Assembly: GCA_046563655.1 (NCBI GenBank)
Contig: CM102287.1
Location: 5,022,001-5,086,000, forward strand
Direction: 5' to 3'
DNA from: Yuukianura sp. NJ FZ-2021
Lineage: Eukaryota
Length of the DNA: 64,000 nucleotides
Below the pieces are notes generated by a model. That model was not told the DNA's origin. It did not search any database and was given only the letters and a program-made list of their open reading frames with translations. This document shows positions 10,101-61,279 of the stretch, one piece after another. Both the position numbers and the translations under genes were made by a program. How positions within the stretch are numbered: position 1 is the stretch's first letter; every line of letters begins with the position of its first letter.

Positions 10101-10457
10101 TCTACGATAGCGTTTTTTTTATTTGAAAACTTTGTGCCAATATAACGTTGGAAAGTATGCTGCGTAGGGTGACTCTTCAGTGCAAGGTCAAGAAGACGAC
10201 AAAATCTTCGAAGGTTTTGGGGAAAGCTGCTTTTTCTTTGGGTAGGAAAAGGTTGAGGGAAATGGAGCCATGAATTTCTGTAGACATTTATGATGTTCTT
10301 TTGTTGAATAGTTACTCCCTCAAAAGAGAAAGTTAAGCAAAGGATCAAACTATTCCTGAAACTCAAACTGTTCCACTTACTATAACTCATAAAAACAAAA
10401 GGCTTTGGATGTACTTGGAGAAGGGGATGTTTCTAGAAGAAAAAGACAGACTTTTTC

Positions 10458-10496
<39 letters not shown>

Positions 10497-28677: not shown

Positions 28678-31600
28678 TCATACGGATGCTTCTGCCTCCT
28701 CAATCACTGTTATGGACCTTCCTGGAAGAATTCGACTAGACCTGGCATAACTTTTGAAGCTTGGAATTTCTCTTGGCATTGTCATTTGCACTCTTTGGCC
28801 AGAGGGATTTGGGCTGGAAATGCCATGAGACGGACTTGCGCCTGCGCTGGAACCTGCTACTGCCGCCGAACTTGTCGCTGCAGGGTTTTGGCCACTCGGA
28901 CCCAACCCTGCAATACATCCAGCTACTGCTGACGTTGCATGGGCTAAATTTGGTCTCGCAGCAGACCATCTTCTGGATTTTCGATCCAAAAGTACAGCAA
29001 AATCTGGATCGTACTCTGAGACTAGACAATTTTCTACTTTGTTACAGGAAGTGATGCAGTCGGCTCCAAAATATTCTGCCCAGTCTTCAAAGTAAATATC
29101 CTAGGCAAAGAACAAAATTAATCCACAATTAAAACCTTCAAAAAATTTTATTTTTGTTTTAAATTTTACTTGAAAGTCCATGTCAGCAATTCCTTCTTCT
29201 GAGATGCAAGTGAGCTCCTTGGCGAGGAGCGCTGGGTCAAGCGCTGCTTGACCTTCTCCATTCGAATCATGTTTGGACTGAGGTGATACTTGTTCCACTG
29301 GAAATGCAAATAACAGGCGTCGTATTTTCGGAGACTGTGCACTCTCCAGTGTTTCACACCTAAAATAACATTGTGATTTTTTTTTAAGTTTTAATACTAC
29401 GAATTACTTATTGAGAAATTAACCCGTTTTGATGGTTTAATTTGATAAGTATTGGTTGTTGCGTTCAGCACATCGCTTATAGCTTACGTTTTCATTGAAC
29501 TATTTTGTGCCTTGCGACGGGACAAGCGTCGTCGCCTGACGTCCGTTAGGAACAAGCATGCAGCTCCAATAATCACGGATACTGCTGAGAGGTAGTAACC
29601 AGTCTTAGATCCCAAGGAACCATTGACATACCCTAGGAAACAGATTTTGAGCAAAAATTTCAAATTTCGTTTGAAATCAGTTTAAAATCAGTTTGTAAAA
29701 AACCAAAACAAAACGCCGGTAAAGTTTTATTAAAGAAGCCTCTCCGTGTTGTTCAGAATAAAAATGAAAGTTTGTAGATAGCTCCGTTTTTTATTGTTTT
29801 ACGCTTTTTGCTTCTTAGTTTGTGCTTTTTTCTTTTCCTTTTCCTTTCACCAACACCAGCTTTTAAAAAGGCTGGTGAAAGTGAAACAAATGGAGGGTGG
29901 TGAAAGTCATCAATTCTTGCACCACATTCCCGCGCTTTCTCCTTACCGGTAAATGGAACTCCGAGGAAGAGCGGAATCGCTTGGGCGGACTGGATGAAAG
30001 ACCAGGCTCTCGGGAAGTGCCTGCGGAACACACAAAGAGAGGATTTGTCATTTTAAAACGCTTTTCTACACAAAAGTTCTATTTCATTTTCATTCCTTGC
30101 CAAATTCCGCTCATTTCGAGCTACAAAAATCCCAAGGACGCTTAAACTTTCTCCACCGGTTACAATCCTTGCCTCGTTATGTTAAAACCTATTAGGTCTG
30201 GATCCATAACCTAACTGCCGTTAGCCTTACCTCGCACGGACTCTCTCGTAGGTGTAGACCTTCAAAGCGTAGTTGTATCCACCGAGAGAGAAGCCGTAGA
30301 TGCAGCAGAAAATAATGAGGCCATTGAAACCCTCTACGGTGGTTAGGCCTAAAATTGAGATCCCGCAAATGACTCCAGCCATCTGAAAAGACACGGTCCA
30401 CTTAACACGAGTTACGTAAATCAACAATGTTTCTACTGAGCAAAACTCAATACGAATCCAAAAGAAATTTCACAATTTCCAAAGTTATCATCTAATATAA
30501 GTGTCTTCAGATTTTCGAAAAAACTGTTAGTGAATCGATACTGTGGATCATTGCATTGCCTGGTTCTTGTCTGGTTTCCCTTGTTTAACCTGGTTTTTGT
30601 TCCTTTCGAAAAGCGTTACCCTAGATTACTGGAATTAGTGGGAGGAATAAACTCGAGTCAGAAAATTTAGGTTACATTTAAGAGTGGATGTATCGGTTGG
30701 ATTTAGAATTATCTAGATTTAGAATTAGAATTGGATATTGATTTGACCTCACCTGACATAAATACTGTTTGGACACGCGACAATCCTGATTCTTCTGAAG
30801 AACAATGAGACCAAATAGGATACAACCCAGAATCCAGAAAGTTCCAACACCAATATGCAGAAACACTACGGAAATATCTTCTCCTCGGGAGAATTCCAGC
30901 TCATCTGCTTTCACCATTTCATTCTGGTACTCCACAGCCTAAACGCCACAGAGAGAAAATACAAAATTTTGAAACAGGCACACTAAAATAGCCGAAGATT
31001 TTGAATACGTTGGGCGACGTTACTTTTTTTATTGTGAAAAACTTTGGAAAAAGTTGTTTTTTTGTTTTACAGTTTTTGGGAAAATAAATGTGACCTTACC
31101 AGGTAGAACAACGGTGTATTAATTCCGAATGCTGTGAATCCACATGAGAGTAGAAGAATTTGTAAAGTTTTGCTTCGAAGGCAAGTGAAATCCAGAAATG
31201 GCGGCTTTTCCTCACGTTTCTCTTTTTCTTTCACCTATTTTAATTAAAAATTGGTTTTATATAAATTAAAACAAACAAATTTTAATTAATTACATCAAAT
31301 AAGGCTCAAGTTTTGTATCAAGTTTGTATTTTGTTTGGTCTAGGTTAAGGTTAGCAACGCCTCTCTTGAGCACGAATTCTATTAAACCATTTGCGTTTGG
31401 GAAACAATTGTGTGGAACCTTTTAGAAGATTCGTTTTGCCAAAATAATGACTTAGGTACTTGACAGGGAAAATGAAGCAATTCGTTACGAATGATCTATG
31501 AACCGTGGGGTCGTAATACATAATGTTTTAAAATAACGCCAAAAGCCCCATGGATTGCGTTTTATGCAGAACATAACTCTTGTCGGTTCGGTATTTTATA

Positions 31601-32835
31601 AACTTTTTGAATGCCAAAATTTTTAATTTATGGACGAGTTAAATAACCAAGTTGTTTTAGAAAACAAAGAAGATGGAGGCAAGGGAGGCTTGTTTTCCGA
31701 ACTTTGACCTCTTGGTCTTACCCATTATCCTTAACATAAAGCATTTGGACGAAAAAAAAAAGTTTTTCTAAAAGTGCTTCTTAAATTTCTAACTTTGAAA
31801 AAACTTTTGTTTTCTGAATGATTTAGGCGGCAATAACTCAGGAACAAGAAAAGTGCTTCTGTTATTGTTTTTCTTCTTAAGTGTTTTTCATTAAATCGCA
31901 AACTATTCCAAACAATTCCCATTTGTAAATTTGCCAAATTTTTGAAATTTTTCCGAATTCCAATACTTTTAAAATTCTTTTTTGAAAGTTAGCTTCAAAA
32001 AACGTGTACTCACCTTTCGTTTTTGATTCTTCAGGTGCAGAATTGCTCTTCTTTGTGGATGATAGAGAGATGCAGATCGGTAGCAAGTGCCAAGGAAGAA
32101 AGTGAGGAAAACGGAACCCGTAATTGCCTGCAGACCAATTCGCCATCCAAGCCAACTGAAACAGATTCGTACAAGAAAAGTTTTTGCAAAAAATTTGCAA
32201 CCGAATGAAGGAAGAAAAAGGAGCTAAGGAAGAATTGAAATCTCAGCGTGGGATTCAAGAATTCTTTGAATGGCGTCTTTTGGTAACATTTAAGATTTCA
32301 TCGGATCTAAAAAGCTTTAGTCGTTTCAAACCGGAATAACAGTAGCAATAAAATTAGATTTGATGGAAACAGTAATGTTAGGTTAGATTAAAGTCCGAGA
32401 ATGCTAACTCATGCTGTTAGGAAAAAAATGACCTCTGACCTCACAGATGTCTGAACTGCAACGGACATGACCAGAATTCCGAGTCCAGATCCCGACACGA
32501 CAACGATTTCGACCAAATCTCTTTTGCGTTTAAAGTACTGCCCAACCATGAGAGAAGAAGCGTCTCTCGTAAGTCCAACTCCAACGCCTAGGTAAGAATT
32601 TTTGAAACTTGAAAAGTTGAAATTATTTTTTCAAAATTTTGAAAATTACCAATGAACGCTCCATAACTAATGAAAAGTTGGTGGAATTGAGAAGCGAAGG
32701 ACGTGAAGAGGCAACCCAGGGATGCGACGAGTCCTCCGAAAACGGCTGCCAGCCGAGTACTCTTCCGCTTACAAATTGAGACCCAAATTGGTGAAAGCAA
32801 AAGTGAAAGTGCCACGGAAGAAGCTCCAAGCCATC
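28678..32835 (-). CDS. SLC16/monocarboxylate transporter (MFS) family protein, shared constant region (TM2-TM12 plus C-tail, ~593 aa, 10 exons)
   Basis: Exons 32835-32650, 32587-32440, 32155-32014, 31234-31100, 30938-30753, 30382-30231, 30020-29947, 29632-29488, 29359-29170, 29100-28678 (1781 nt, entered in phase 1). SLC16 signature VGQYFKRKR, plus GWRIGLQ and twelve-TM hydrophobic pattern minus TM1. Ends ITVIEEAEASV*. Confidence 0.9.
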
Positions 32836-35819: not shown

Positions 35820-36660
35820 CTGCTTGGATGTGAGTAACCTTTTCACTAAATTTACGCGTTAGAAAAGCAATGAAGATGCCCGTCGAGAGCTGGAAGCCTA
35901 CAGTAAGGAAATGACATAGCACAGCCACTAGGAGAATGACATAACCCCATCCACCTTCTGGATAATAATGTTGAGTAATTGTACTTGCACTGCCACTTTC
36001 ACTTTCACTTTTCTTCCTCTCAACCCCTCCGTGACCTCTGTGACCTCCTGTTCCTATAAAGTGATGTGGATTTCTAAAGTTTGGTTTGACATTTGTTCCA
36101 GCCAGTTCCATGTCCAATCTGGACTTGGAGTCAGAAGATGATCCAGGGCTCTTGGGTGTTTGATTTCTCTTTAATCTGAGTCTGTGTCGTTGTTTTGACT
36201 TGAGCTCCCCATGGATCTGATTGTCATCAGGCAGAGATGAGACTTCATCATCTTCTGAATTGGCTTCATCCGCATCCACTGACGTCTCTTGCCCAAACTG
36301 AAGCCCAGTTTGAATCAGATCACCCTCAATGTCCATCAAACCTGATGGAACATCGCTTGGCAAGCCACCACAACTCATGTCATCAGCAAATTGACCTCCA
36401 TCCAAGTCATCTTCTGGGTCAAGGCCAGAGTCTTTTAAGTGACGATTTGTATTGGACGTGGTGCTGCTGGGGTCATCGAACAACGCGATCTCTTGAGCTT
36501 CTTTGAGGTCAGAACTGGCAGAAGTGTCAGCAAAATAAGGAAGGACGCCGTCGGAAGAAGAGGCGGAGAAAGTCCGGTCAAATGAAAATGGGAACTTTCC
36601 CCTTCCTCGGACAGTGCTATTGGCATGGCCAAACGTTCCTTTTAATGGCCTGGAAGCCAT
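35820..36660 (-). CDS. MCT transporter variable N-terminal module 1 (proximal; 280 aa cytosolic tail + TM1)
   Basis: ATG 36660, open to ...ITQHYYPEGGWGYVILLVAVLCHFLTVGFQLSTGIF..HIQA G|gtaatc. 841 nt = phase 1, fits the shared acceptor at 32835 (G+GA TGG = GW). Confidence 0.85.
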
Positions 36661-38019: not shown

Positions 38020-38388
38020 TGTTCGGACTTTGACCTCGTGTCAAAGCCGAGCTGAGAGTCTCCTTATGAGACGTACGACTCAAAACACGGCAAAATAACG
38101 GAAGCAAAAATAGGCAAGACAAGAAGTCCAATTGTTTCAGATTTATTTAGGACTTGACTTGTCAACGGACAAAATGCAACTTACTTACTAAAGGGTCATG
38201 GTGGGTTTCTTCGTTGACGTTGGGTTGGTTTGGGCGGGAAAAATGTTTGTTTCTTAAAACTAAAAATACACACAAGTTACAAACTAAAAGACACAAAAGG
38301 CATGAAGGAAAGAAAATGTAAAATGGTAAAATTGGTAAAAATGCATAAATTAACCTAATCCTAAAATCAGCTCTGTTCCTTCGGAACA
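38020..38388 (-). repeat. 3' LTR of BEL/Pao element
   Basis: 369 bp, no differences from 43955-44323 found by eye. Preceded on the - strand by ...GGCCCCGGAAGA at the PPT position. Confidence 0.95.
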
Positions 38389-40463
38389 TCTTCCGGGGCC
38401 GGGAGAGGTGGAGGCTCCTGGGTATCTTTGGATCCATCTTGGAGAATCGGCGCATGCTCAATTGGTAGGGGGGCAATTCTGGTAATCGGACGGCGTAGAA
38501 TCTTTCCTTGGGGTGTCCGTATGTCAGCTACACGAACCTTTCCATCTGCTCCTGGGTAGACGGCTTCCACACGGGCTAAATTCCAGTGGTGACTGGAGAA
38601 GGTGTCATCCGAATCTTGAACCAAGACGAGGACTCCGGGCTCCAAATCCGGTTGTGGTTGGCACCATTTTGGACGGGATTGGAGAGTGGCGATGTACTCC
38701 TGCGTGAATCGTTGCCAAAAATGTTGCGCAAACTGTTGTACAATCTCCCATCGATCCAAGCGATTGAGTGGAGTCTTCATGTGGTTGTAGGCTGGGATGG
38801 AGTGTAGAGTATCTCCGATCAAGAAGTGCGCAGGCGTAAGCACGTCGAATCCGGTAGGCTCAGAGTTCAATGGCACTAGTGGACGGGAGTTGAGAGCTGC
38901 TTCAACTTGCACTAAAAGTGTTCCAAATTCCTCTAGTGATAGGTGGCGGTCACCAACAATTCGTCGGAGATGAAGCTTGGCACTTTTTACCGCAGCTTCA
39001 AAAAGTCCTCCATGGTGTGGTCCATATGGGGGGTTAAACTGGAACTCGATTCCTTTTTCCTTGGAGAACATGGTGACTTGGCTTTGAAATTCTGTTGAGT
39101 CGATAATCTTTTGAAGGTCATCAAGCTCATTTTTGGCTCCTACAAAGTTGCTACCATTGTCGCACACTATGGTGCGAGGGAGTCCACGACGCGACACAAA
39201 ACGATTGAGTGCAGCGATAAACGATGGAGTGGAGAGACTACCAACTAACTCTAAGTGTACAGCCTTTGTCGCTGCGCAGACCAGTACACAAAAGTAGTGT
39301 TTCTCGAGGCGTGGTCTTCTTCCTGGAACTGTTGCAAGGACGAATGGTCCTGCAAAATCCAATGCGGTGGTAATAAACGGTCGAAGGTTAGAGGTCACAC
39401 GATACTCTGGCAATGGTGCCATGAGTTGGCGGAGTGGTATGGGGTTAGCTTTGTGGCACTTTACACACTTACGAACGATTCTTTTTACGGTAGTGGGACC
39501 ATCAAAAATCCAAAACTTGTCACGCAAGATGCATAACAGTAGGGTGGGACCGGCGTGTAAATGTTCTTGATGGAGGTGACGTATGAGTACTTCTGTGAAG
39601 TGGTGGTCCTTTGGGAGAAGCATTGGGTGTTTCTTGTTGAAGTGGAAGTTACTTTGACCCAAACGTCCCCCCACACGGAGGATACCTTGGTCATCGAGGA
39701 ACGGAGAAAGAAACTTAACTCTTTTTGATGAGGGGGCACTTCCACTACTAATGAAACGAATTTCATTAGAAAAGGCTTGACCTTGGATGACCTTAACGAT
39801 GGTCAGGAGGGCATCTTCCAACTCCACCACTGTTAGAGGGGAGTTGTCTTTCACTTTAGTTTTTGCACATTTTAGAAAACGCTGACCTGATGCCACGAAC
39901 GATTTCATCTTGTGGAGAGATGATGTGGAATTGATGAATTCCAGAAGTGGTGGTAAAGGTACGTTCACACCGACTGAAGAAACATTCACTATGGGTGGCA
40001 CTTGGATGAACTTGACCCACGGTGGTCCATTGAGCCAAAGTGGGTTGGTTAGGAATTCCTTTGCAGAAATTCCACGTGACGGAAGGTCGGCTGGGTTCTC
40101 GGATCCAATAACGTGGTTCCACTGGGCAGTCGGAAGTAGTTGTGTAATAGTACGCACTCGGTTCAACACAAAAATTTCGCGCTTGCGCGGTGGGTCGGAA
40201 CCGGGCTTTAGCCAGCCAAGGACACTGGTAGAGTCAGAAAAGCACATGACACTGTTCACTTTCACTGGGAGGGCATCAATGACGGTTTTCAAAAATCTGG
40301 CGAGTAATTTTGCTCCTTCCAGTTCTGACCTTGGAGTAGTTTCACCTTTGACCGGAGTAACTTTTGTTTTGGACCCTATGAGGGTAACAGTGACATTGAA
40401 GGGGGTCTGTACACGAATGTACACAACTGCTGCATGAGCTCGGTTAGATGCGTCGCAGAATCC
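38367..40463 (-). CDS. BEL/Pao pol C-terminal part: RNase H and integrase (continues after a 1-nt frameshift)
   Basis: GFCDASNRAHAAVVYIR, TTPRSELEGA, FSDSTSVLGW, NPADLPSRG (Pao RNase H). HHCC zinc finger (HLHAGP..CVKC). DDE core LDFAGP / CDNGSNF / GLFEAAVK. Reads into the 3' LTR. Confidence 0.9.
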   Translation of the reverse strand, partial: GFCDASNRAHAAVVYIRVQTPFNVTVTLIGSKTKVTPVKGETTPRSELEGAKLLARFLKTVIDALPVKVNSVMCFSDSTSVLGWLKPGSDPPRKREIFVLNRVRTITQLLPTAQWNHVIGSENPADLPSRGISAKEFLTNPLWLNGPPWVKFIQVPPIVNVSSVGVNVPLPPLLEFINSTSSLHKMKSFVASGQRFLKCAKTKVKDNSPLTVVELEDALLTIVKVIQGQAFSNEIRFISSGSAPSSKRVKFLSPFLDDQGILRVGGRLGQSNFHFNKKHPMLLPKDHHFTEVLIRHLHQEHLHAGPTLLLCILRDKFWIFDGPTTVKRIVRKCVKCHKANPIPLRQLMAPLPEYRVTSNLRPFITTALDFAGPFVLATVPGRRPRLEKHYFCVLVCAATKAVHLELVGSLSTPSFIAALNRFVSRRGLPRTIVCDNGSNFVGAKNELDDLQKIIDSTEFQSQVTMFSKEKGIEFQFNPPYGPHHGGLFEAAVKSAKLHLRRIVGDRHLSLEEFGTLLVQVEAALNSRPLVPLNSEPTGFDVLTPAHFLIGDTLHSIPAYNHMKTPLNRLDRWEIVQQFAQHFWQRFTQEYIATLQSRPKWCQPQPDLEPGVLVLVQDSDDTFSSHHWNLARVEAVYPGADGKVRVADIRTPQGKILRRPITRIAPLPIEHAPILQDGSKDTQEPPPLPAPEDVPKEQS

Positions 40464-43400
40464 AAAAGTTGGTACTGCGCATGCTCACTGCTACTTTCGT
40501 CTGGACGGAAGTAGCACCTTGGGGCCACGAACTCAGCAAGGCAGGGAAGGTCGGAAATGTAGTTGTTCCATTTTTTCAAAAGTTCATTTGAGATGGGGTC
40601 ATCCCAGTTGACCTTTGACTTCCATACTTCTTGCAGTAGGATTTTGGCACGAATGGTCACTGGAGAAAGAAAACCTAATGGATCGTAGAGTCTGGCTACG
40701 GCTGAAAGAACTGACCTCTTGGTGACCTTGGATGGGTTAGGCATGGATGGCACCACTACAGTCATTGTGTCGGTCGAGGGTACCCACCTAAGTCCAAGGG
40801 TAGGGAGGCCTTCGGGGTCACAAATGAGGAGTGGTGAGTTGACCTCTCGCTCTTCCGGTGGAATGCTGGACAGCAAACTTGGGACATTCGATGCCCACTT
40901 GCAAAGTGGGAACTGGCCTTTAGCCATCACTTCACGTAAAACACTTTGCACATGCGTAACACGGTCTAGGGAAAAGGCACCAGTCAACACATTGTCAACT
41001 AAAATGTCTTTTTTGACTATGTCAGTTATGGTGGGGTCACTACACTCATCTTCGAACAACTTGTGCAGGGCACGAATTGCTAGGTATGGGGCGGGAGAAA
41101 CGCCAAAACACAAACGACGGAAGCGTAGATGCTGTAAGGGCATGTCAGGAGACTCACGGAACACTAAACGCTGAAAATCCCTTTGCACATGCGCAATCCA
41201 AATTTGTGTGAAAAACTTGGCGATATCAGCAGAAATGACATAGGGGAAGGCACGGAACCTCACAAGGAGTGGAATTAGATCCACTTGCAATTTTGGGCCT
41301 GGGTACAAAATGTCGTTAAGGGATGGGCCCTTAACGGTTTTCGCTGAACAATCGAAAACGATTCGGAGTTTGGTGGAAGTGGATGTCTCCTTCACAACAT
41401 GGGAATACGGCATGTAGTATGACGTTTCTGGAGAAATGCGAATTTCATGGGTAGGAATGACCTCCATGACCCCTGAGGTCAAGTTGGACTTGAAGTACTC
41501 TTTGTAGGCAGTACACACTTCACTGTTCTGGTGGATTCGTCGTTCCGTAGAGTGGAAACGGCGAATAGCATTGGCGAGGGACCCACCCATGGGGGGGTGA
41601 ACATCACGAAATGGCAATTCCACAGTGAATCTGCCACTGAGGTCACGGGTTGTTGTTGCGAGGAAACGAGATTCACAAATTGAGTCTTGAATTGACCTTG
41701 GTGCACTCACTGCATCAGGTTCCTCTGATTCCCAGAACTTTTGAACAAGTTGTTCCAAATCTGGTTTGGTGGGACAGAGCACGCTAGAACCTGGGTGTTG
41801 AGCGGGTGGGGATTCCCTGGCGGATGCCAATCTGCACTCTCCGCTACTGGGCGAGCCGACTCCGGCACCCTCCCCAAGGAGGGGGATCCCGCTCACTACA
41901 GTAGCGTTGCACTTGGGCATTTGGGTGGGCACTCTGGGTACACTGGGTACTGGGTACTCACCGGTTAGGATCCATCCGAACGGAGTGTTTTCTGCTGATG
42001 GCATTCCTGGTGGTCCGTGGATCAGTCCACCGGACTTGATTTTGGTGGCGAAACGGTTGCCCAGTAGAATATCCACTGGGTGGGGATCGAAGAACCCTGG
42101 ATCGGCAAGATCCAAATCTACCAAATGGGGAAATGAACTTTGACATTTCACTTGGGGCATGTTTCCACTGGTTATTTTGTCCACTACATCAGCTTCGATT
42201 GGGAGGGAGTAGCCGTTGAGGCGGGACACTAAGGTCACTTTCACTCTACCGTGGGTGGTGGGGCCTGCAACTCCACTAATTCCAGTAACTGAAATGGGGG
42301 TACCGTAAGGTTTGAAACCAAGACGGCGGGCTAAATCACTCGAAATAAACTCCACTTCACTACCATTGTCAACAAACACTCGGGCGGGGTGGGGTTGACC
42401 TTTGAGGTCAAGGACGTTGACCTTGATGGTAGCGAGAAGAACATGAGAAGAGTGGGTGATTCCGAATGAGCAGTTTGAGTAACTGACAGTATCTCTAGGT
42501 GGAGGTGGGTGTGACCCTTGACCTGGTGGGGCATTGGTGGGGCGGGAACGATCATGGTGGAGTAAGGTGTGGTGGCGTTTACTACACTTTTGGCACACAA
42601 ACTTGGAGGTACACTCATTGGCAGAATGCTTGGACGAAAAGCAGTTGAAGCAAAGGCGAGCCTTTTTGACAAGGTCACTCCGGTCATTTGGAGAAAGTGA
42701 CGCAAACTTTTGGCAACAATTCAATGGATGGAATGTTTCCATGCAGCAGACACACTGTCCACTTGGTGGGGCGGGAGCGGCGGTGGCCGCGAACACTTTT
42801 CCTTGCATGGTGGGACGAGGTGGGTTTGACCTTTTGACCTCTGAGGTCGAATTTTGTTGTTTTTTGGATCTACCTGCGTTGTCATCCAGTGCACATGCGC
42901 GCATCTCCAAAAATTCTAGAAATGGTTCTAGGGTGGGTAGGCTGGTGTCCTGGGTGAGAAGCCACTCACGGCGGGTGTCCTCATCCAACTTCTTGAATGT
43001 CCAAAATACTAGGATGACATCCCAATATTGGACAGGAATTTCTTGTGACTTGAGAGAGCGGACGACTTCATTGACGAGATCCACCACAGCACGCAAATCA
43101 GTGGCGGAGTCGGTTGCTCTTCTCAACTCATACAATTTGCGTAAATGTGCAAAAGCTATTTCACGTGGATTTGCATACCTTTTTTGCACAAGTTCCCAAC
43201 CGTCTGGGTAGGAGTTGTTGGACGTTGAGAAATTCTGGATTATGGCTAGAGCGTTTCCTGTGAGCGAAGTACGCAAATGAACCATCTTCTCGGCGTTGGA
43301 CAGACTCTGGTCGTTGTGGACTGCTGAGGTGAAGAGGTCACGGAACTCTTCCCAAGCGGCAAAGGATCCATCGAAGGTCGGCAGCTTGACTCTTTCAAGC

Positions 43401-43864
43401 TTAAAGTTTGACTTGGAGGACGCAGACTGTTGAGCATGCGCTTTACGAGTTTTAAAAAGTAATTTTGTACCTGCGTCTAAGATGTCCTCTACAGCGTCAA
43501 AGCGTCCGATGTTGTTGGCGTACAATTGTTTGTAGTCCTTGAGTGCAGCTACGGCGGTAACAAACTTTTGCTTCCAGTCACTGCACTGGAGTTCCATCGC
43601 TTTGAACTTTTTGTCGTATGTTGCTAAGTCGGAATCGTCGAACACTGCATCAACACAGGCGACGAACTTCTCGTGGAGACGTTTGGCGTCATGGTGTAGC
43701 ACTCCGATGCCAAACACGCAAGTCTCCATATTAGGAATTGGCATTGGGACTTCACCACTGTCACTAACCGCTTTTTCGGTTGTTTTCACCACTTTTTCGG
43801 TGGCCTTCGGCACTTTTTCTGCGGACTTTGGGGCACTAGTGCCGGATTTGTCTTGATCTGACAT
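40376..43864 (-). CDS. BEL/Pao gag-protease-reverse transcriptase polyprotein (N-terminal part)
   Basis: Gag KLPTFDGSFAAWEEFRDLF. Knuckles CVCC..H..C, CFNCFSSKHSANEC, CQKCSKRHHTLLH. Protease VFVDNGSE. RT KLRIVFDCSA, SLNDILYPGP, ADIAKFF, FGVSPAPYLA, LVDN. TKRSVLSAVARLYDPLG. Confidence 0.92.
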   Translation of the reverse strand: MSDQDKSGTSAPKSAEKVPKATEKVVKTTEKAVSDSGEVPMPIPNMETCVFGIGVLHHDAKRLHEKFVACVDAVFDDSDLATYDKKFKAMELQCSDWKQKFVTAVAALKDYKQLYANNIGRFDAVEDILDAGTKLLFKTRKAHAQQSASSKSNFKLERVKLPTFDGSFAAWEEFRDLFTSAVHNDQSLSNAEKMVHLRTSLTGNALAIIQNFSTSNNSYPDGWELVQKRYANPREIAFAHLRKLYELRRATDSATDLRAVVDLVNEVVRSLKSQEIPVQYWDVILVFWTFKKLDEDTRREWLLTQDTSLPTLEPFLEFLEMRACALDDNAGRSKKQQNSTSEVKRSNPPRPTMQGKVFAATAAPAPPSGQCVCCMETFHPLNCCQKFASLSPNDRSDLVKKARLCFNCFSSKHSANECTSKFVCQKCSKRHHTLLHHDRSRPTNAPPGQGSHPPPPRDTVSYSNCSFGITHSSHVLLATIKVNVLDLKGQPHPARVFVDNGSEVEFISSDLARRLGFKPYGTPISVTGISGVAGPTTHGRVKVTLVSRLNGYSLPIEADVVDKITSGNMPQVKCQSSFPHLVDLDLADPGFFDPHPVDILLGNRFATKIKSGGLIHGPPGMPSAENTPFGWILTGEYPVPSVPRVPTQMPKCNATVVSGIPLLGEGAGVGSPSSGECRLASARESPPAQHPGSSVLCPTKPDLEQLVQKFWESEEPDAVSAPRSIQDSICESRFLATTTRDLSGRFTVELPFRDVHPPMGGSLANAIRRFHSTERRIHQNSEVCTAYKEYFKSNLTSGVMEVIPTHEIRISPETSYYMPYSHVVKETSTSTKLRIVFDCSAKTVKGPSLNDILYPGPKLQVDLIPLLVRFRAFPYVISADIAKFFTQIWIAHVQRDFQRLVFRESPDMPLQHLRFRRLCFGVSPAPYLAIRALHKLFEDECSDPTITDIVKKDILVDNVLTGAFSLDRVTHVQSVLREVMAKGQFPLCKWASNVPSLLSSIPPEEREVNSPLLICDPEGLPTLGLRWVPSTDTMTVVVPSMPNPSKVTKRSVLSAVARLYDPLGFLSPVTIRAKILLQEVWKSKVNWDDPISNELLKKWNNYISDLPCLAEFVAPRCYFRPDESSSEHAQYQLLDSATHLTELMQQLCTFVYRPPSMSLLPS

Positions 43865-43954
43865 GGTGGGACGAAAGCACTACTGAACGTTGGAAAAAGC
43901 TTTTAAAAACTGGCTAGGTCACACAATTGGAAAGATCACTACAATTGGAAAAGA

Positions 43955-44323
43955 TGTTCGGACTTTGACCTCGTGTCAAAGCCGAGCTGAGAGTCTCCTT
44001 ATGAGACGTACGACTCAAAACACGGCAAAATAACGGAAGCAAAAATAGGCAAGACAAGAAGTCCAATTGTTTCAGATTTATTTAGGACTTGACTTGTCAA
44101 CGGACAAAATGCAACTTACTTACTAAAGGGTCATGGTGGGTTTCTTCGTTGACGTTGGGTTGGTTTGGGCGGGAAAAATGTTTGTTTCTTAAAACTAAAA
44201 ATACACACAAGTTACAAACTAAAAGACACAAAAGGCATGAAGGAAAGAAAATGTAAAATGGTAAAATTGGTAAAAATGCATAAATTAACCTAATCCTAAA
44301 ATCAGCTCTGTTCCTTCGGAACA
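43955..44323 (-). repeat. 5' LTR of BEL/Pao element
   Basis: 369 bp direct repeat of 38020-38388. AATAAA on the - strand near 44077-44082. Confidence 0.95.
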
Positions 44324-49470: not shown

Positions 49471-51086
49471 CTTCATTATACCGATGAACCAGCATATTAG
49501 CCAAGAAGAGTTGTGTTCCATGAGCCAGCAAATGAGAGGTCAAGGCACAAAAGGTCACGACCCAACCCCATCCCCCCTCGGGGTAATAGTGCTGCTGCAG
49601 TGTGCGCCACTCTGACCTCTTCTGCAGGTCATTCACCTCCTGTCACATTTTAAACACGTCAAATTCAATTTATATAAAACAATTTATTAATTGATTTTAA
49701 TAAATTAAGCCTAGGCGGAGACCTACACCAATTTATTTCCAGTTTTAAACTCTAATGACTCGTTTAGCAGAAAGCATTAGCGAAAATGAGATTTTTAGAA
49801 TTTCAGTCATGTATGCAAAAAGCAAAATGGCAAATGCACTGAATCGGAAATTAAGCAATAAATCAGTACTTGAAACAGTAACAAATGAAAAACTCCCGAA
49901 GCAAAAAATTAGTCCAACAGCGTCTGGTTTTAATTACAACAAAAGCAAAAAACGTCAAAAATTTACCTACTCTGTATTTGCAACGGTACTTCCAAATTTG
50001 GATCTCGTTACAAACAAGAAGCCTCTTAATTTGGACACACCCTGTACTTTTTTTCCTGAAGTGATTCCTAATTAACTTTTTAGGAAATCAAGAAACAATT
50101 GATTTTTGTTCAAATTATACCACATTGTAGATACATAGCATATGGACTGGGAAGCACTTTGGCCTTACACAGATCGCAGAACGAATTCCCATCCTCATCT
50201 TGATCCTAAATCTTATTTTCATGTTACATCTCTAAGGAATTTCTTATTTGGAGAGACAGAGATCTGTTAGAGGGAGGGAACTCTAAATAAATCAACTCCA
50301 TCTTTCATCCAATGAAAAGGCATAAAAAGAAACGAGTGTTTTCAGAAAATACTTTTTCAAAAAGAGTAAACATTTTTAAAAATTTGAATCTACTATTTAC
50401 AAATTCAACATTTTAGGACCACTCCTCGTTATAAATTTAAACTAGCTTGAACTTCCCGTGAGTTCTTCACGGTTGCCAAACGCTTAATTTTTAAAGTTCA
50501 CGCTAAAAACCAAAGCAGTAACTTTTTTTGGAGTTCCGCTGTACTAAATTAAAATGCCAAAACAGAAACAGAATGCAGAAAGTTGGTTAGTCAATCAGAA
50601 CGAAAAAGCCTAAAAGCAAACGGTGCTCACTAAATTAGAAACCAAAAACTGTCAAATTCTAAAAACCTGTTTTGAAAAACGGAAGCTAAAATTTCTTAAA
50701 ACTGCGTGAAGCAATAAAGTGTGTATGACAAATTGACTATTGACATTGTAACTTTGGAAGGAGAGTAAACAAACCTGTTCCTTCTTGGCACTTGCTCCTA
50801 ACTTTCCACCCCCTCCTTTATGAATCATCTTCAGTTTGTCCATGTTGCTTTTCAAGTCTGCGCTTTTGATTGGAATTTGATAGGAACCTTCTGGGTCATC
50901 CGGAAGATGAATTCGCGGTAACAAGACGGCGGTGGCTGGCAGGGACTTTGATCTGCTAGATTTCGTTGTAGCGGGAAACTGTCCGTCATCTTCGGAACAT
51001 GCTGTTCCTACTACAGCATCTTTGGAAATCATTGTGCAAATGAAGTCAGCAGCACAAGCACCCCCACTAGCCTTCGACGAGATCAT
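49471..51086 (-). CDS. MCT transporter variable N-terminal module 2 (two exons; ~160 aa tail + TM1)
   Basis: Exon 51086-50775 (MISSKASGG..AKKEQ|gtttgt, phase 0) joins exon 49639-49471 (acag|EVNDLQKRSEWRTLQQHYYPEGGWGWVVTFCALTSHLLAHGTQLFLANMLVHRYNE G|gtagaa, phase 1), which fits the acceptor at 32835. Confidence 0.75.
50021..50046. mobile_element. Possible solitary Tc1/mariner-like terminal inverted repeat fragment
   Basis: gcctcttaatttggacacaccctg|ta is the reverse complement of TA-CAGGGTGTGTCCAAATTAAGAGGC, resembling a mariner-type end. No partner TIR found nearby. Confidence 0.3.
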
Positions 51087-54000
51087 CAGAGGGATGATTT
51101 GACTGAATTTCGCTAATGGATCTTCTTAAAGAGGAAACGATCTTGGACGGCATTACGTAGGTTTACTTACGTCAACACAGAAAACGTCAACAATGAAAAC
51201 CACCAACTCGTTTTACATAAAAACATACAATATTCTGCATTTTAAGTTGGTTTAAAAGTGGTTCTCTGTTTACATAATTTTAGTATAGTTAATGTCGTAA
51301 GTGAGCCAACTTATCAAATCAAGTGCTTAGCTGAGATTAACATGGATTGCCTTTTTTTTTGGATTCGCTTCAACATACATTTCATGTTTACACGTTCTTG
51401 TGTTGGTGTAAAGTTGTGTTTAGGTAAGTCTGTTTATGTAATGACTGAGGAAAAGTTGGATTGTCTGATTTCCATTGTTTTGTTATTCTGCTGTTGAAGA
51501 TCCAGTTGACTTTAGATGAACTTGTGAATGATGCTCATCAGCCTCTTCGATCTTCAAATTCTAGATCAAATTCTTTGATTCTTTGAAGTCATCTTCCTAA
51601 ACAGTTTCATTACAAGCACACTTCACTTTTGTGGAGTCAATGACCTCGAAGGATGCATGTCACTTTTGACACGTTTTAGATTATTACACAAACAGAGCTT
51701 AGATCAAAAGCCAGTTAGTCCAAAAACTTTTGACAATGACAACTTTAGAAAGTTTCAGAAGTTATTCGAGAAATGATTTTTGGCAAAATTGATTCAGCGA
51801 GCAACGGCTCTATAAATTCTAAAATCTGGAATATTTGTTCCGCATTTTCAGGTTCCAAAACATTGAAAATGTTTAGAAAACTGGCGAAGCAGAACTGAGT
51901 TTTTCTGAAAAAGGGAACTGCTCTTCAGCACTTCTAAAGCACACGGACGCACAACGCATAAAACCAACAAATGTCAAAAATGATTGTCATAAATAATTCA
52001 AGCTGAAGAGGAAAAAGTTAATGGGGAAGAACAGACTGTTTTAAAATGGGTTTATCTTCTTGTTGGACAATTCTTGAATTTGACACTTTCAGAAATTCTC
52101 GGGACATTGGATGTGATGGGGCGAAAATAATTTTTATGATGTGAGCTAAACAACTAAATCTTACGCACTGGAACACTTCCGCAAACGCACAATTTTCATC
52201 TTCCTGCATTGCTTAGATTTTCAGATCTTCAGAGAAACTGAAACGAAGTGAGAAGAATTCTACTTTGAGAAAACGTTTTTCCAGCGATGTGTCAAAAAAA
52301 AACTTCCACCGCACGCCAAAAACGCCTTAAAAGCACTTTCTCCGTCAATATCGTCAGAGTTTGAAACAAAAGTTGCCGATTTCTCGGCTAATGTCACAAA
52401 GCGACGCAAAAAGACAATTAATTTTTATTGTGTTTTTAACTAGGTTTCCGGAAAAACTTTGAAAACTTTTGTCGTTCACGGAGAACCAAAAACTGTCAAT
52501 TGGCTGCCTTCGATGAACTGAAAAAGTGTTTTCGTTTTGTTCGTGCTTAGCAGACAGAAACGAGACCACCGCCTCCAATCCCCAGTTTTGTTCAAATGAA
52601 CTTCTTAAGTACAAGACACTTCAGACACTTTGTGCGTACTCAATCTTGTGAATGAGTGAGCCTGAATAAATTCAATCTTCTAAAACCCAAGATGAAATGA
52701 TGAGGCTTCCAACAGTGAAGGTAGAGTCAAGATAGGAATCACCATTACCTTCCACAGCCACAACAATACTTTGTAGCACTTCACAAAATGAAAAAGTGTA
52801 AAATGTAATATGTAAAACGTCTAAAATGTAAAATTTAAACAATTGAATTTCAAATTATGAGAGCACGAATCTTCAGAAGATGTTTCTCCTCCAGGCCATT
52901 CCTCAATAATGAGAAACTTTTCTGGAGAAAGTGCGGCGCGTTTCAATTTGGGTAACGTCGTCTGATGGAGTCTGAGATACAAGAAGGATTTGGTTTGGGT
53001 TTAACACTTTACGAGATTTTGGGAAGAAGATGCAACTTTTGCGGGCGTTTTCACTTTTTCTGTGGGATTTGAAGAATTAATAGTAAGATTTGGATGGTGA
53101 CTGGTCGTGATGAAAAGAAAACAGAAAATTGCTGAGTGTGGTGAGAGATGAAATGAAAACGGTCGCGTCTTTGCTCTGGCAAATTCCAAAGTGAAAGAAA
53201 GTGGAGATCATTTCCCAAAAGCTCAGAAGAAGATCCGAAGAAGTTCAGAAAGCGACAGGAAATGTGAGTGTCGATTGAAATTTGAGTTCTTGTGGTGGAA
53301 AGGCGCCGTAACCGCAGCGGTGGCGGGAGTAATAACAAGGATTTTGGCTTTTGGGATTTTAAAATAAAGTGGCACTTCAAACCACTCCTTTTGTTTTTCT
53401 AATACGAAATTCTACGGAAAACGGAGATCATATGAAACAAATTTATTTGTAATTTCACCCATTTCAGAGCGGACGAAGATGTCTAATCTTTTTTTAGTGT
53501 TTTTCTTAAACTAGCTCGAAAATGAATTGAAAACATTAAAACAACATTAGCAAAAACATCGCTATATTTAAATTTTTCAAAAAAAAAAATACATTAGAGA
53601 GTTTACGAAAACTGTAAAATTATTCTGCAACTGATCTCCCCCCATAATTTACTCAATTTGTTTACTTTGCGTAGGTTTTAGTTTTTAAAGTAAAAGCTGA
53701 TCAGTGTAAAATCAAATACTGAACGTGATTTTGAAACCTTTTCGGGGAGTGATTGATGTGAAAATTTCAAATTTCGAGATGATTAGCAAGATGAATGTGA
53801 GATTTTGGGAATGTGATCTGCAGTGAAACCGAAAAGGAATATTTCTCCAACCTTGTACTTCATCTTTCCCATAACGAATGAATCCCAAGATGCTTTCCCG
53901 TTGCCAAATGAAGTCTTTTCCTGAATGTTAACTTTACTATAGTATCGAAGTCTCTTAAGTTACAAAGTAAGTGAGACTGAAGGAAGTGTGAAAAGTCACA

Positions 54001-56885: not shown

Positions 56886-57592
56886 CCCTAATTCCTTGCC
56901 TATAAGCCGCACTCACGTATAAGCCGCACCAAGGAATTTTCAAAAATACATTGATAACGCAAAAACGCAAACTTTAAAGTTAAAAAAAGGAAACTGTACA
57001 GATTATAGTACAGTTTCAGGTATAATTATTGTACTTTCATCGTGTAACTCCGATTTTTTTTTGATTTTTTTCCCCTAAAATTCCTTATGGACCCCTGGCC
57101 ATGAAAATATATATTTTTTACTACACTCCCAAAAACTGAAATTTTTTAAAAAGTTTGAAAATTGAAATGTCCCCATAATGGCTCATGTAAATTTTTTCTC
57201 AACGTTTTACAACTTAACTCGGTTACTACGTTTTAAAACGCTAAACAATTTTGGTAGGTAGGTTAGGTTAGTTTTTTTTAGAACAAAAATTATACAAATC
57301 CGAGTTACCCGGTGAAAGTAAAATTATTCCCAGTTTCCTCAAAACATCTTTTAATTATGCACGAATTCGTACAAATTTGATTCGCCAGGCACCAGAACCG
57401 TGGCAAAAATGCTGAATTTGATGAATTAACATTAAATAAAAACCGTTTTAAATGGGATTTAGCACATTTACAGGCAATTCCTAAAGATTTTTAACAAAAT
57501 TCTTCATTTTTCTACGAAAAAAAAATTATTTTGTTTTCAAAATTTTTCGAAATTTCTCGGATAAGCCGCGGCTTGTAGGCAAGGAATTAGGG
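56886..57592. mobile_element. pogo/Tc2-like (Tc1/mariner superfamily) MITE, 707 bp
   Basis: 25-bp TIRs ccctaattccttgcctataagccgc (56886-56910) / gcggcttgtaggcaaggaattaggg (57568-57592), one mismatch. TA on both flanks. Internal tataagccgc repeats. Confidence 0.8.
57019..57330. mobile_element. Small MITE nested inside the pogo-like MITE (GG-start TIRs, ~8-bp TSD; Merlin/Mutator-like)
   Basis: Imperfect TIRs ggtataattattgtactttcatcgtgtaactccgattt / aaatccgagttacccggtgaaagtaaaattattcc. Flanks cagtttca (57011-57018) and cagtttcc (57331-57338). Confidence 0.6.
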
Positions 57593-60121: not shown

Positions 60122-61279
60122 CCAGAAGCGTTTCCGTTTCGGCTGTCACCGGAAATCGACGCTGAATAGGAACTGTGAGAGAAGTGACAGCTACTTGGAA
60201 GCCATGATTAATCGACGTAATCATAAATGCAACTACGACTACTACCCAACCCCATTCTCCCTCCGGGTAGTAATTTTGCCACAGCGTGACCACTTTTCTA
60301 GGTCCACTTCCATTGGGACTGGACTGGACATGGAGTGACATTGGGCCAGTGGCTGTTCCAGTGACATGACGCTGTCCAGAATCGGCTGCAACTTTGGAAG
60401 GTGGGCCAGAATGGCCAATTGGTGACATAGGAGTGGTGGGAACTCCATTTTTACAAGTGGGAAGATGCTGAAAGTTTGTTTTAGAAAATGTGTTTGGTGG
60501 ACTTGAGTACGGCCGAGAGTCACTGGGGAAAGTTAAGACTGAAGTGTCACTTTTCCTTGGAGGACTCAAACTAATTGCTCTTATGGCGGAATTGTGTTTG
60601 TTTTCCATTTGAAGCTTATTGGTGTTTGCCAACTCAAGACTTTTCTCGCGTTTCACAAAATTCTTGGTGTTTCCCATGATTTTTCCTTTGAGAAAGCTAA
60701 ATTTATCCCGAAATGGATTTCTCAACTGGTCAACTCCTGCAAAGTGACAAAAAAGTGAAAAGAAAAGTCAATAAAAATGGAATTACTGAAGTGCTAAGCA
60801 ACGCTTTTTTTTTCCTGCTTTTGTGAAATTTTTTCAATTTGGGCAATTCTGGAGTTATTTTGATTGTCCCTGTAGCCTGGAAGAATTTTAGTTTCAAGAA
60901 ATTTTGAAAAATATTTTCGTTTTTTGAAAAAATTACCTCCCTTACCACGTGAATGTCGTTTGGTACTGACGCAGTGTGTCACTGCACCAGTTCGTGCCGT
61001 AGTTCTAGTCACTTTTGACGCCGAAAGTGAGTGTTCCGACTCTACTGTTTTCGCCTCATCACCTTCAGATTTATGAGCACAAGTGCAGAAATTGGCACTT
61101 TTATTTCCAACTCCAACTCCACCTCCTTTTTGAAATGATTGAGAATTGTTCCTTTTCTTTCCGTTTTTCAAATTTTGTTTCAATTCTTCTGCAAAATTCA
61201 ATCGGTCCAATTGTAATTCCTCCGCAGCGGACGGCCATGTAAAGCTGTGTTTCAAGCGGAATGATTTAGACGATGGCAT
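60122..61279 (-). CDS. MCT transporter variable N-terminal module 3 (distal; two exons, ~316 aa tail + TM1)
   Basis: Exon 61279-60946 (MPSSKSFRL..KRHSR G|gtaagg, phase 1) joins exon 60736-60122 (tttgcag|GA VDQLRNPF..VVTLWQNYYPEGEWGWVVVVVAFMITSINHGFQVAV..ETLL G|gtaagt, phase 1), which fits the acceptor at 32835. Confidence 0.82.

What the first reader, a model, noticed from the sequence alone, without database searches (positions are those of the whole stretch)
28678..61279. SLC16 transporter with three interchangeable N-terminal modules, each carrying its own TM1 (variable/constant exon architecture)
Seen: the SLC16 TM1 signature occurs three times on the - strand, as QHYYPEGGWGY (~35940-35970), QHYYPEGGWGW (~49560-49595) and QNYYPEGEWGW (~60245-60280). 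TM2-TM12 exist only once (32835-28678). Each TM1 exon follows a different, unrelated low-complexity tail (modules of 280, ~160 and ~316 aa) with its own ATG. All three end in a phase-1 GT donor (35820, 49471, 60122) matching the single phase-1 acceptor at 32835. Established: UGT1A and clustered protocadherin loci use tandem variable first exons spliced to constant exons. Inference: alternative promoters produce three transporters that differ in a core transmembrane helix and the whole N-tail. I cannot tell from sequence alone whether this is already annotated in other arthropod orthologues.
Basis: partly seen in the sequence, partly recalled or inferred. Interest (0 to 1): 0.85.

Follow-up and report, generated by a model that had tools for sequence, protein, structure and literature searches.

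The report
Transporter gene with three alternative starts
A springtail-like membrane transporter gene carries three interchangeable front ends, each with its own first membrane helix, an arrangement that is real but is already annotated for the matching gene in mosquitoes.

Summary
On the minus strand lies one SLC16 (MCT8-like) gene. It has a single 10-exon constant body (32835-28681, 593 aa) and three upstream 5' modules (ATGs at 36660, 51086 and 61279; 280, 160 and 316 aa). Each module holds its own YYPEG-WG[WY] TM1 and ends in a phase-1 G|gt donor (35820, 49471, 60122) that fits the phase-1 acceptor at 32835. Each module has its own orthologue at the N-terminus of an annotated collembolan transporter, joined to a body at the same residue. 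In mosquitoes the orthologous gene (An. gambiae AGAP000795, Ae. aegypti AAEL012461) is annotated with 3-4 isoforms. These have identical bodies and different N-tail+TM1 modules that switch at the same G|W junction. Tail motifs link the collembolan and dipteran module types. No RNA run was listed and no genome is held, so the three junctions in this species are inferred. This is a new member of a kind already annotated in databases. Seven full-text searches found no description of it. Interest is modest.

The parts
60946..61279 (-). Module 3, exon 3a: ATG at 61279, 111 codons plus 1 base, phase-1 donor CGT G|gtaag. The N-terminus carries K-H-S-F-T-W-P.
   Evidence: Sequence read; translation; the [ST]WP motif is shared with Folsomia and Orchesella C-type and with dipteran b/c modules.
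60122..60736 (-). Module 3, exon 3b: phase-1 acceptor ttgcag|GA, tail plus TM1 (QNYYPEGEWGW...), phase-1 donor CTG G|gtaag.
   Evidence: tblastn to P0011 and P0016 gave E 1e-14 and 4e-12. In the TM1 tree it groups with Folsomia and Orchesella C at 99/98. One search found P0011 only.
50775..51086 (-). Module 2, exon 2a: ATG at 51086, 104 codons, phase-0 donor CAG|gtttg. Contains R-S-K-S-L-P.
   Evidence: The RSxSLP motif is shared with Allacma P0007 and with 18 of 18 dipteran or ant d-type modules.
49471..49639 (-). Module 2, exon 2b: phase-0 acceptor, TM1 (QHYYPEGGWGW...), phase-1 donor GAA G|gtaga. The segment from TM1 to the junction is about 10 aa shorter than in modules 1 and 3.
   Evidence: tblastn to Allacma P0007 gave 64% identity, E 7e-21. 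In the TM1 tree it groups with Allacma at 100/99. Allacma shares the short form.
35820..36660 (-). Module 1: a single exon, ATG at 36660, 280 codons plus 1 base, tail plus TM1 (QHYYPEGGWGY...), phase-1 donor GCA G|gtaat.
   Evidence: Orchesella P0001, P0003 and P0004 are homologous over both TM1 and tail. In the TM1 tree it groups with Orchesella A/B at 99/95.
32650..32835 (-). Constant exon 1 (TM2-TM3). Phase-1 acceptor ttacag|GA; this is the common target of all three donors.
   Evidence: 87% identical to Allacma P0007; gene model.
32440..32587 (-). Constant exon 2 (TM4-TM5 region, GQYFKRKRDLVE...).
32014..32155 (-). Constant exon 3 (TM6, RSASLYHPQRRAILHLKNQKRK).
31100..31234 (-). Constant exon 4 (loop and TM7).
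30753..30938 (-). Constant exon 5.
30231..30382 (-). Constant exon 6.
29947..30020 (-). Constant exon 7.
29488..29632 (-). Constant exon 8 (last TM and start of the C-tail).
29170..29359 (-). Constant exon 9 (C-tail).
28678..29100 (-). Constant exon 10 (C-tail ending ...VIEEAEASV, stop at 28680-28678).
38020..44323 (-). BEL/Pao LTR retrotransposon inside the intron that transcripts starting at modules 2 and 3 must cross. It lies in the same orientation as the gene. It is not part of the transporter.
   Evidence: Pfam Peptidase_A17, rve, DUF1759 and DUF5641. The 369-bp LTRs are 100% identical, with TG...CA ends and a 5-bp target duplication GACGC.

Best explanation
This is one SLC16 (MCT8/MCT10-like major-facilitator) gene of a collembolan-like hexapod. 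It has three alternative 5' modules, each probably driven by its own promoter. Each module encodes a different cytosolic N-tail plus its own first transmembrane helix. Each is spliced through a phase-1 donor to the same acceptor at 32835, in front of ten constant exons that encode TM2-TM12 and the C-tail. The predicted products are 873, 753 and 909 aa.

The arrangement appears old. The same three module types exist in other Collembola, and the orthologous mosquito gene uses 3-4 such modules on one body.

Shown:
- the anatomy of the locus and the phase compatibility of the sites;
- a single body in the window;
- orthology of each module;
- annotated use of such modules in mosquitoes.

Inferred:
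- separate transcription starts for the three modules;
- use of all three junctions in this species;
- functional difference between isoforms, which I expect to lie mainly in tail-borne regulatory or trafficking motifs (RSKSLP in module 2, N-terminal TWP in module 3), because the H-G-x-Q-L-S half of TM1 is kept in every module.
For: Anatomy of the locus:
- Splice sites and phases were read directly.
- The 10-exon body model is all GT-AG and gives a 593-aa open frame.
- Body and TM1 occur once and three times respectively in 64 kb.

Module orthology in Collembola:
- Module 1 resembles Orchesella P0001 and P0003.
- Module 2 resembles Allacma P0007.
- Module 3 resembles Folsomia P0016 and O. dallaii P0011.
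- In each of these proteins the module is joined to a body at the same residue.
- TM1 tree support is 99/95, 100/99 and 99/98.

Mosquito precedent, isoforms with bodies identical to the last residue but different N-tail+TM1 modules (names, check):
- An. gambiae AGAP000795: 4 of 4.
- An. merus: 4 of 4.
- An. funestus: 3 of 3.
- Armigeres: 5 of 5, of which 2 lack a TM1.
- Ae. aegypti: 3 of 4.

Motifs that link module types across about 80 N-modules:
- RSxS[LIVMF]P occurs in 18 of 18 d-type and 2 of 2 collembolan module-2 type, and in 0 of 47 a, b, c, module-1 and module-3 types.
- [ST]WP in the first 25 aa occurs in 11 of 11 b, 3 of 3 c and 5 of 5 collembolan module-3 type, and in 0 of 48 a, d, module-1 and module-2 types.

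Serial use is excluded by frame: the 3b donor joined to the 2b acceptor reads GGA GGT GAA TGA.

SLC16 membership: the Allacma orthologue matches solved human MCT8 at E 1e-35, then MCT10, MCT2 and MCT1.
Against: - There is no transcript evidence for this species. No RNA run was listed and no genome is held.
- In Orchesella dallaii and Folsomia the module-3 type sits on its own, different body (P0011, P0016), and module-1 types sit on other bodies (P0003, P0004). Modules can therefore belong to separate paralogues. Module 3 here could be what is left of such a paralogue.
- The body tree does not resolve whether the window's body predates that duplication.
- Folsomia's four annotated products of LOC110854068 all share one N-module, so alternative TM1 modules are not annotated in any collembolan.
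- A 6.3-kb sense-oriented LTR element with identical LTRs lies in the path of transcripts from modules 2 and 3.
- Exon 2b has an acceptor with few pyrimidines upstream. Including it in module-3 transcripts would be out of frame, and how it is skipped is unknown.
- The motif counts are inflated by closely related mosquito species.
Confidence: 0.8

Rival explanations
1. Only one or two modules are used. Module 3, and perhaps module 2, would be a leftover 5' end of a tandem paralogue whose body was lost. It would not be spliced productively to the remaining body.
For: In O. dallaii three paralogues on one 3.0-Mb contig each carry one module type on their own body (P0003, P0004, P0011). Folsomia's module-3-type gene has its own body. 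The body tree leaves the order of duplication open. There is no RNA evidence here. A recent LTR insertion lies between modules 2/3 and the body.
Against: All 316 and 160 codons are open, with start codons, canonical GT-AG sites and exactly the phase needed for the acceptor at 32835. The tail motifs and the TM1 signature are conserved. Mosquitoes use the corresponding module types on one body. No other body lies within the window.
Confidence: 0.13
2. The distal modules are separate small genes encoding a long tail plus a single helix, and are not parts of the transporter.
For: Such a stand-alone model exists in a public annotation: Cephus cinctus LOC112494658 (P0005, 595 aa) ends just after a TM1 exon.
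Against: The Cephus model and the Logan protein P0002 simply read on into what looks like intron after the conserved junction residue, so they look like split annotations. Here each TM1 ORF closes 31-41 bases beyond a consensus donor. Every full-length relative joins this exon to a body.
Confidence: 0.03
3. The TM1 exons are included one after another in a single transcript.
For: Exons 2b and 3b are internal exons with both an acceptor and a donor.
Against: The 3b donor (phase 1) joined to the 2b acceptor (phase 0) gives a stop in the fourth codon. Module 1 is a first exon with its own ATG, and stops lie just upstream of that ATG. No relative among the 149 proteins fetched has two TM1 signatures in the tables.
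Confidence: 0.01

Closest known systems
Mosquito orthologue: Anopheles gambiae AGAP000795 (PA, PB, PC and RefSeq isoform X2); Aedes aegypti AAEL012461 / 'monocarboxylate transporter 12' isoforms X1-X3; Armigeres subalbatus isoforms X1-X5
   Same: Same orthologue group: the collembolan and insect bodies form sister groups. Same junction, with the module ending in G and the body starting WLGA. Several N-tail+TM1 modules sit on one identical body. Tail motifs are shared: RSxSLP, N-terminal [ST]WP and FD[DE].
   Different: Mosquitoes have four module types (a, b, c, d); the window has three. One-to-one orthology rests on short motifs only, because the TM1 tree does not resolve it. Tail lengths differ. 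Collembolan module 2 has a TM1-to-junction segment about 10 aa shorter. I saw only the protein products, not the mosquito loci or their transcript support.
Collembolan relatives: Orchesella cincta and O. dallaii 'Monocarboxylate transporter 10' (P0001, P0003, P0004, P0011), Folsomia candida LOC110854068 (P0016), Allacma fusca CAG7725857.1 (P0007)
   Same: Each carries one of the three module types, joined at the same residue. The bodies are 45-89% identical exon by exon. The collembolan bodies form one clade at 100/99.
   Different: There the module types are annotated on different bodies (paralogues), one module per model. Here all three precede a single body.
Variable first exon / constant exon loci (UGT1A, clustered protocadherins); recalled, not tested here
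   Same: A tandem series of homologous 5' coding exons, each presumably with its own promoter, spliced to shared downstream exons. Protocadherin variable exons likewise carry a transmembrane segment.
   Different: Only three modules. Two of them consist of two exons, so the TM1 exon has its own acceptor. The variable part supplies one helix of a 12-helix bundle rather than a separate domain.
Human MCT8 (SLC16A2) and MCT10 (SLC16A10), solved structures 9gv5, 9fkn, 8zkn, 9gsz
   Same: These are the best-matching solved proteins for the Allacma orthologue (E 1e-35 and 5e-26). They have the 12-TM SLC16 layout. MCT8 also has a long N-terminal extension before TM1.
   Different: No alternative TM1 exons are known to me for the human genes (recalled). 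The arthropod proteins have much longer N- and C-tails. The substrate is unknown.

Membership tests
SLC16 / monocarboxylate transporter family (MFS) | Signature leading into TM1, [D/E]G[G/S][W/F][G/A]W (pattern recalled from reviews) | tested here: met
   PEGGWGY, PEGGWGW and PEGEWGW in the three modules. Modules 1 and 3 each depart from the recalled pattern at one position (Y for the last W; E for G/S), and their collembolan orthologues share these departures.
SLC16 / monocarboxylate transporter family (MFS) | Significant similarity over the whole 12-TM core to proteins of known SLC16 structure | tested here: met
   Tested through the orthologue: Allacma P0007 (73% identical to the window's body over 554 columns) matches MCT8 at 1e-35, MCT10 at 5e-26, MCT2 at 3e-25 and MCT1 at 1e-18. 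Relatives carry Pfam PF07690. Single window exons are too short for Pfam.
SLC16 / monocarboxylate transporter family (MFS) | Large cytosolic loop between TM6 and TM7, and a TM5 lead-in motif YFxK[RK][RL] (recalled) | tested here: met
   GQYFKRKRDL in constant exon 2. The loop segment RSASLYHPQRRAILHLKNQKRKV follows TM6.
Variable-first-exon / constant-exon gene architecture | Tandem homologous 5' coding exons upstream of one set of constant exons | tested here: met
   Three TM1 exons and one body in the window.
Variable-first-exon / constant-exon gene architecture | Every variable exon can be spliced in frame to the first constant exon | tested here: met
   Three phase-1 G|gt donors and one phase-1 acceptor.
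Variable-first-exon / constant-exon gene architecture | Each variable exon has its own promoter/TSS, and use is mutually exclusive | not testable with these tools
   No RNA run was listed. Each module has its own ATG with in-frame stops upstream. Serial use of 3b and 2b would be out of frame. In mosquito annotations each isoform carries one module.
AGAP000795 / AAEL012461 orthologue group | Body orthology | tested here: met
   The collembolan clade (100/99), which includes the window, lies beside the insect orthologues. Ischnura and Carabus sequences fall outside on a long branch. The motif RSASLYHPQRRAILHLKNQKRK is shared.
AGAP000795 / AAEL012461 orthologue group | One-to-one correspondence of module types (m1=a, m2=d, m3=b/c) | tested here: inconclusive
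   The tail motifs agree. The TM1 tree leaves the deep forks open, and tblastn with the c-type protein P0041 did not hit module 3 at E<=1e-3.

The most novel reading that the evidence does not exclude
The cluster of alternative N-tail+TM1 modules would be an ancient pancrustacean or hexapod invention, kept for several hundred million years. Each module type would be defined by its own short linear motif:
- RSxSLP, which fits the recalled 14-3-3 mode-1 consensus;
- an N-terminal basic-x-x-[ST]WP;
- FD[DE]P.

One transporter core would then be sorted or regulated in three or four different ways. Mosquitoes and this collembolan keep all modules on one body. Orchesella and Folsomia would have resolved the same modules into separate paralogous genes, a natural case of isoforms turning into paralogues. 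No paper describing this turned up.
Probability: 0.45. Interest if true: 0.5.

Novelty: new member of a known kind. Interest (0 to 1): 0.3.

Why it matters
- **Genome annotation.** The three modules belong to one gene. They should not be called as separate genes, as appears to have happened with the Cephus cinctus model P0005.
- **Transporter biology.** This is a clean example of an MFS transporter that swaps its first helix together with its regulatory tail through alternative promoters, and it is conserved from springtails to mosquitoes. It offers a way to test which properties (sorting, regulation, perhaps substrate) are set by TM1 and the N-tail.
- **Evolution.** Comparing this locus with Orchesella and Folsomia could show alternative first exons being partitioned among gene duplicates.
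- **Limit.** None of this is a new kind of system. The architecture is already in the VectorBase and RefSeq gene models of the orthologue.

Tried and rejected
**Transcript and genome evidence**
- No RNA holder was listed for window:28600-36700.
- No whole genome is held for this window. A second body or other module copies elsewhere could not be sought.

**Tests on the window itself**
- Pfam on single exons gave nothing above threshold (one search was a frame slip of mine).
- Docking/selector RNA pairing, Dscam-like, between the 250 nt upstream of the acceptor and the 250 nt downstream of each donor: 7, 1 and 10 of 25 mononucleotide shuffles reached the observed duplex energy. A larger version timed out. 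There is no support, and the test is weak.

**Comparative tests**
- A TM1-only tree (61 columns) cannot resolve how collembolan and insect module types correspond.
- The body tree cannot order the A/C duplication relative to the window.
- A 'longer' search with module 3b returned only P0011. A 'longer' search with module 1 returned 5 proteins, none from the window's own species.
- The Drosophila orthologue was not identified. None of the 95 hits is from a brachyceran fly, and I did not pursue it.

**Literature and earlier findings**
- Seven full-text searches gave no paper describing alternative TM1 exons in an SLC16 gene. AGAP000795 and AAEL012461 occur in no held main text. Supplements were not searched.
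- For the Silnoon paper (PMC2557035) I read only matched passages. They say nothing on this, and I could not tell whether Sln is related.
- Earlier findings of this scan: nothing.


Full report
**What is there**

Between 28678 and 61279 the minus strand holds one SLC16-type transporter gene.

Three 5' modules:
- Module 1 is one exon. Its ATG is at 36660, with stops just upstream, and its last base is 35820 (280 codons).
- Module 2 is exon 2a (ATG 51086 to 50775, donor CAG|gt, phase 0) plus exon 2b (49639-49471). It totals 160 codons.
- Module 3 is exon 3a (ATG 61279 to 60946, donor G|gtaag, phase 1) plus exon 3b (60736-60122). It totals 316 codons.

Each module ends with its own copy of the TM1 lead-in YYPEG-WG[WY] and a hydrophobic helix. 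Each closes with a phase-1 donor that leaves a G.

The single acceptor ttacag|GA at 32835 completes a glycine codon in all three cases, and the frame runs on into WLGASS... (TM2).

A script chose GT-AG junctions by similarity to the closest relative. It gave ten constant exons (32835-28681) and an open 593-aa body. The predicted isoforms are 873, 753 and 909 aa.

**Is it more than chance, and is there only one body?**

I ran tblastn of 12 related proteins against the whole window.
- Body matches lie only between 32860 and 28693.
- TM1-like matches lie only at the three sites.
- The repeat finder independently reports the three TM1 copies as its only multi-copy family apart from a pair of LTRs.
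- Each module matches its best relative at E 1e-14 to 1e-21.

**What the relatives show**

The nearest proteins are collembolan. Each of the three modules has its own counterpart at the N-terminus of a full-length collembolan transporter, joined to the body at the same residue:
- Module 1 corresponds to Orchesella cincta and O. dallaii P0001 and P0003, and to the paralogue P0004.
- Module 2 corresponds to Allacma fusca P0007, including the unusually short stretch between TM1 and the junction.
- Module 3 corresponds to Folsomia candida P0016 and O. dallaii P0011.

In a tree of the TM1 segments the three pairings have support 99/95, 100/99 and 98-99. The three modules are therefore older than the split of these collembolan lineages.

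The deep forks between collembolan and insect modules are not resolved with 61 columns.

Yes.**

One search returned many 'isoform X' products of the insect orthologue. One search gave their names, and one search compared them.

| Species (gene) | Products with an identical body | Notes |
|---|---|---|
| An. gambiae (AGAP000795) | 4 of 4 | PA 925 aa, X2 868 aa, PB 823 aa, PC 803 aa; four different N-modules, each with its own TM1 |
| An. merus | 4 of 4 | |
| An. funestus | 3 of 3 | |
| Armigeres subalbatus | 5 of 5 | Two of them lack a TM1 |
| Aedes aegypti | 3 of 4 | The older model AAEL012461-PA differs near its end |

- In An. gambiae the switch lies exactly at ...G|WLGALSTA.
- One search had shown the same for three pairs of isoforms, with bodies identical over 614 of 614, 614 of 614 and 689 of 689 residues.
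- The variable-module, constant-body layout is thus already in public gene sets for the orthologue.
- I saw only the protein products, not the mosquito loci or the transcript evidence behind them.

**Links between collembolan and dipteran modules**

Motifs in the tails sort with module type across about 80 N-modules.

| Motif | Present in | Absent from |
|---|---|---|
| RSxS[LIVMF]P | 18 of 18 d-type modules; both collembolan module-2 types (window, Allacma) | 0 of 47 a, b, c, module-1 and module-3 types |
| [ST]WP within the first 25 residues | 11 of 11 b; 3 of 3 c; 5 of 5 collembolan module-3 types | 0 of 48 a, d, module-1 and module-2 types |
| [LVIF]FD[DE] | 18 of 23 a; 2 of 5 collembolan module-1 types | All other named types |

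- Among 14 unclassified modules the three motifs occur 3, 1 and 1 times. Penaeus and Artemia are among those with RSxSLP.
- These counts include many close mosquito relatives, so they are not independent events. The pattern still suggests m2=d, m3=b/c and, more weakly, m1=a.
- Against this, tblastn with the c-type protein did not reach module 3.
- RSxSLP fits the 14-3-3 mode-1 consensus as I recall it. That is a lead, not a result.

**How it most likely works**

Transcription would start at one of three promoters. The module's donor is spliced to 32835, and everything in between is removed as intron.

Mutual exclusion follows partly from the layout. Module 1 is a first exon without an acceptor. 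Joining 3b to 2b gives a stop in the fourth codon.

How exon 2b is skipped in transcripts that start at module 3 is open. There are few pyrimidines upstream of its acceptor. A test for competing RNA pairing found nothing.

Across ten module representatives, the lead-in and the second half of TM1 (H-G-x-Q-L-S) are conserved and the first half is free. I therefore expect the transport core to be similar in all isoforms. The differences should lie mainly in the tails (sorting, regulation), with TM1 carried along because the ancestral intron lies behind it. This last step is inference.

**The main rival**

In O. dallaii and Folsomia the module-3 type has its own body, and in O. dallaii three paralogues lie on one contig.

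Module 3 here could therefore be the remnant of a lost paralogue. The body tree puts all collembolan bodies in one clade (100/99) but leaves the window, Allacma, the A-type and the C-type unresolved, so it does not decide.

In favour of current use:
- the 316 codons are intact;
- the splice sites are consensus;
- the phase is exactly right;
- the motifs are conserved;
- mosquitoes provide a precedent.

I put the three-isoform reading at 0.8.

A 6.3-kb BEL/Pao element lies in the same orientation in the intron crossed by module-2 and module-3 transcripts. It has identical 369-bp LTRs and a 5-bp target duplication. It may lower the output of those transcripts in this haplotype.

**Family**

The Allacma orthologue is 73% identical to the window's body over 554 columns. 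It matches solved human MCT8 best (E 1e-35), then MCT10, MCT2 and MCT1. Relatives carry Pfam MFS_1. The gene is an SLC16 member of the MCT8/10-like kind. Its substrate is unknown.

**Novelty**

Seven full-text searches found no paper that describes alternative TM1 exons in an SLC16 gene or that names AGAP000795 or AAEL012461. Supplements were not searched.

The architecture is nevertheless plain in existing annotations. This locus is a new member of a known kind, in a genome for which I found no annotated product. Interest is modest.

The boldest reading the data allow is an ancient, motif-defined module cluster that some Collembola have resolved into paralogues.

**What could not be done**

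There is no transcript evidence, no genome, no access to the loci of the relatives, and no Drosophila orthologue was identified.

Noticed in passing
window 38020-44323 (-): A complete-looking BEL/Pao LTR retrotransposon. Its two 369-bp LTRs are 100% identical, with TG...CA ends and a 5-bp target duplication GACGC, so the insertion is very recent. The gag-pol frame is broken once, inside the Pao peptidase domain (ORFs 43879-40376 and 40484-38367 overlap). The element accounts for the GC rise to 0.47-0.50 in this stretch.
   Followed up: partly
window about 1183-21000 (+): A multi-exon adenylyl cyclase gene on the opposite strand, downstream of the transporter's 3' end: Pfam AC_N at 3975-4364 and the Guanylate_cyc catalytic domain at 20586-20951.
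   Followed up: partly
window 26871-27692 (+): A 273-codon open frame between the cyclase and the transporter with no Pfam match at E<=0.01. Unexplained.
   Followed up: no
window 51150-51195 (-): About 70-110 bases upstream of the module-2 ATG there are two TGACGT motifs and a TACGTAAT (ttgacgttttctgtgttgacgtaagtaaacctacgtaatg), which resemble CRE or PAR-bZIP sites. They may be part of a module-2 promoter. Not tested.
   Followed up: no
P0005 (Cephus cinctus LOC112494658) and P0002 (Logan): Public protein models that consist only of a long tail plus a TM1 exon and then read on past the conserved junction. They are probably alternative first modules of the SLC16 orthologue called as separate genes or ORFs.
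   Followed up: partly
P0100, P0098 (Armigeres subalbatus isoforms X4, X5); P0081 (Apis dorsata X5); P0084 (Cimex X2): Annotated isoforms of the orthologue that start from other first exons or inside TM2, and so lack TM1 altogether. In the window, splicing 3a (phase 1) directly to 32835 would likewise stay in frame and give a product without TM1.
   Followed up: no
window 5881-6264 (-): An open frame made of about three tandem copies of a 35-40-aa unit (…[23 protein letters not shown]…), lying within the cyclase gene region. It looks like a tandem DNA repeat, not a gene.
   Followed up: no
one search hit list: Among 95 hits to the TM2-TM3 exon there are many nematoceran Diptera, Hymenoptera, Hemiptera and crustaceans, and one spider. 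There are no brachyceran flies and no Lepidoptera. The orthologue may be lost or much changed there, which could explain why the architecture has not been studied in Drosophila.
   Followed up: no
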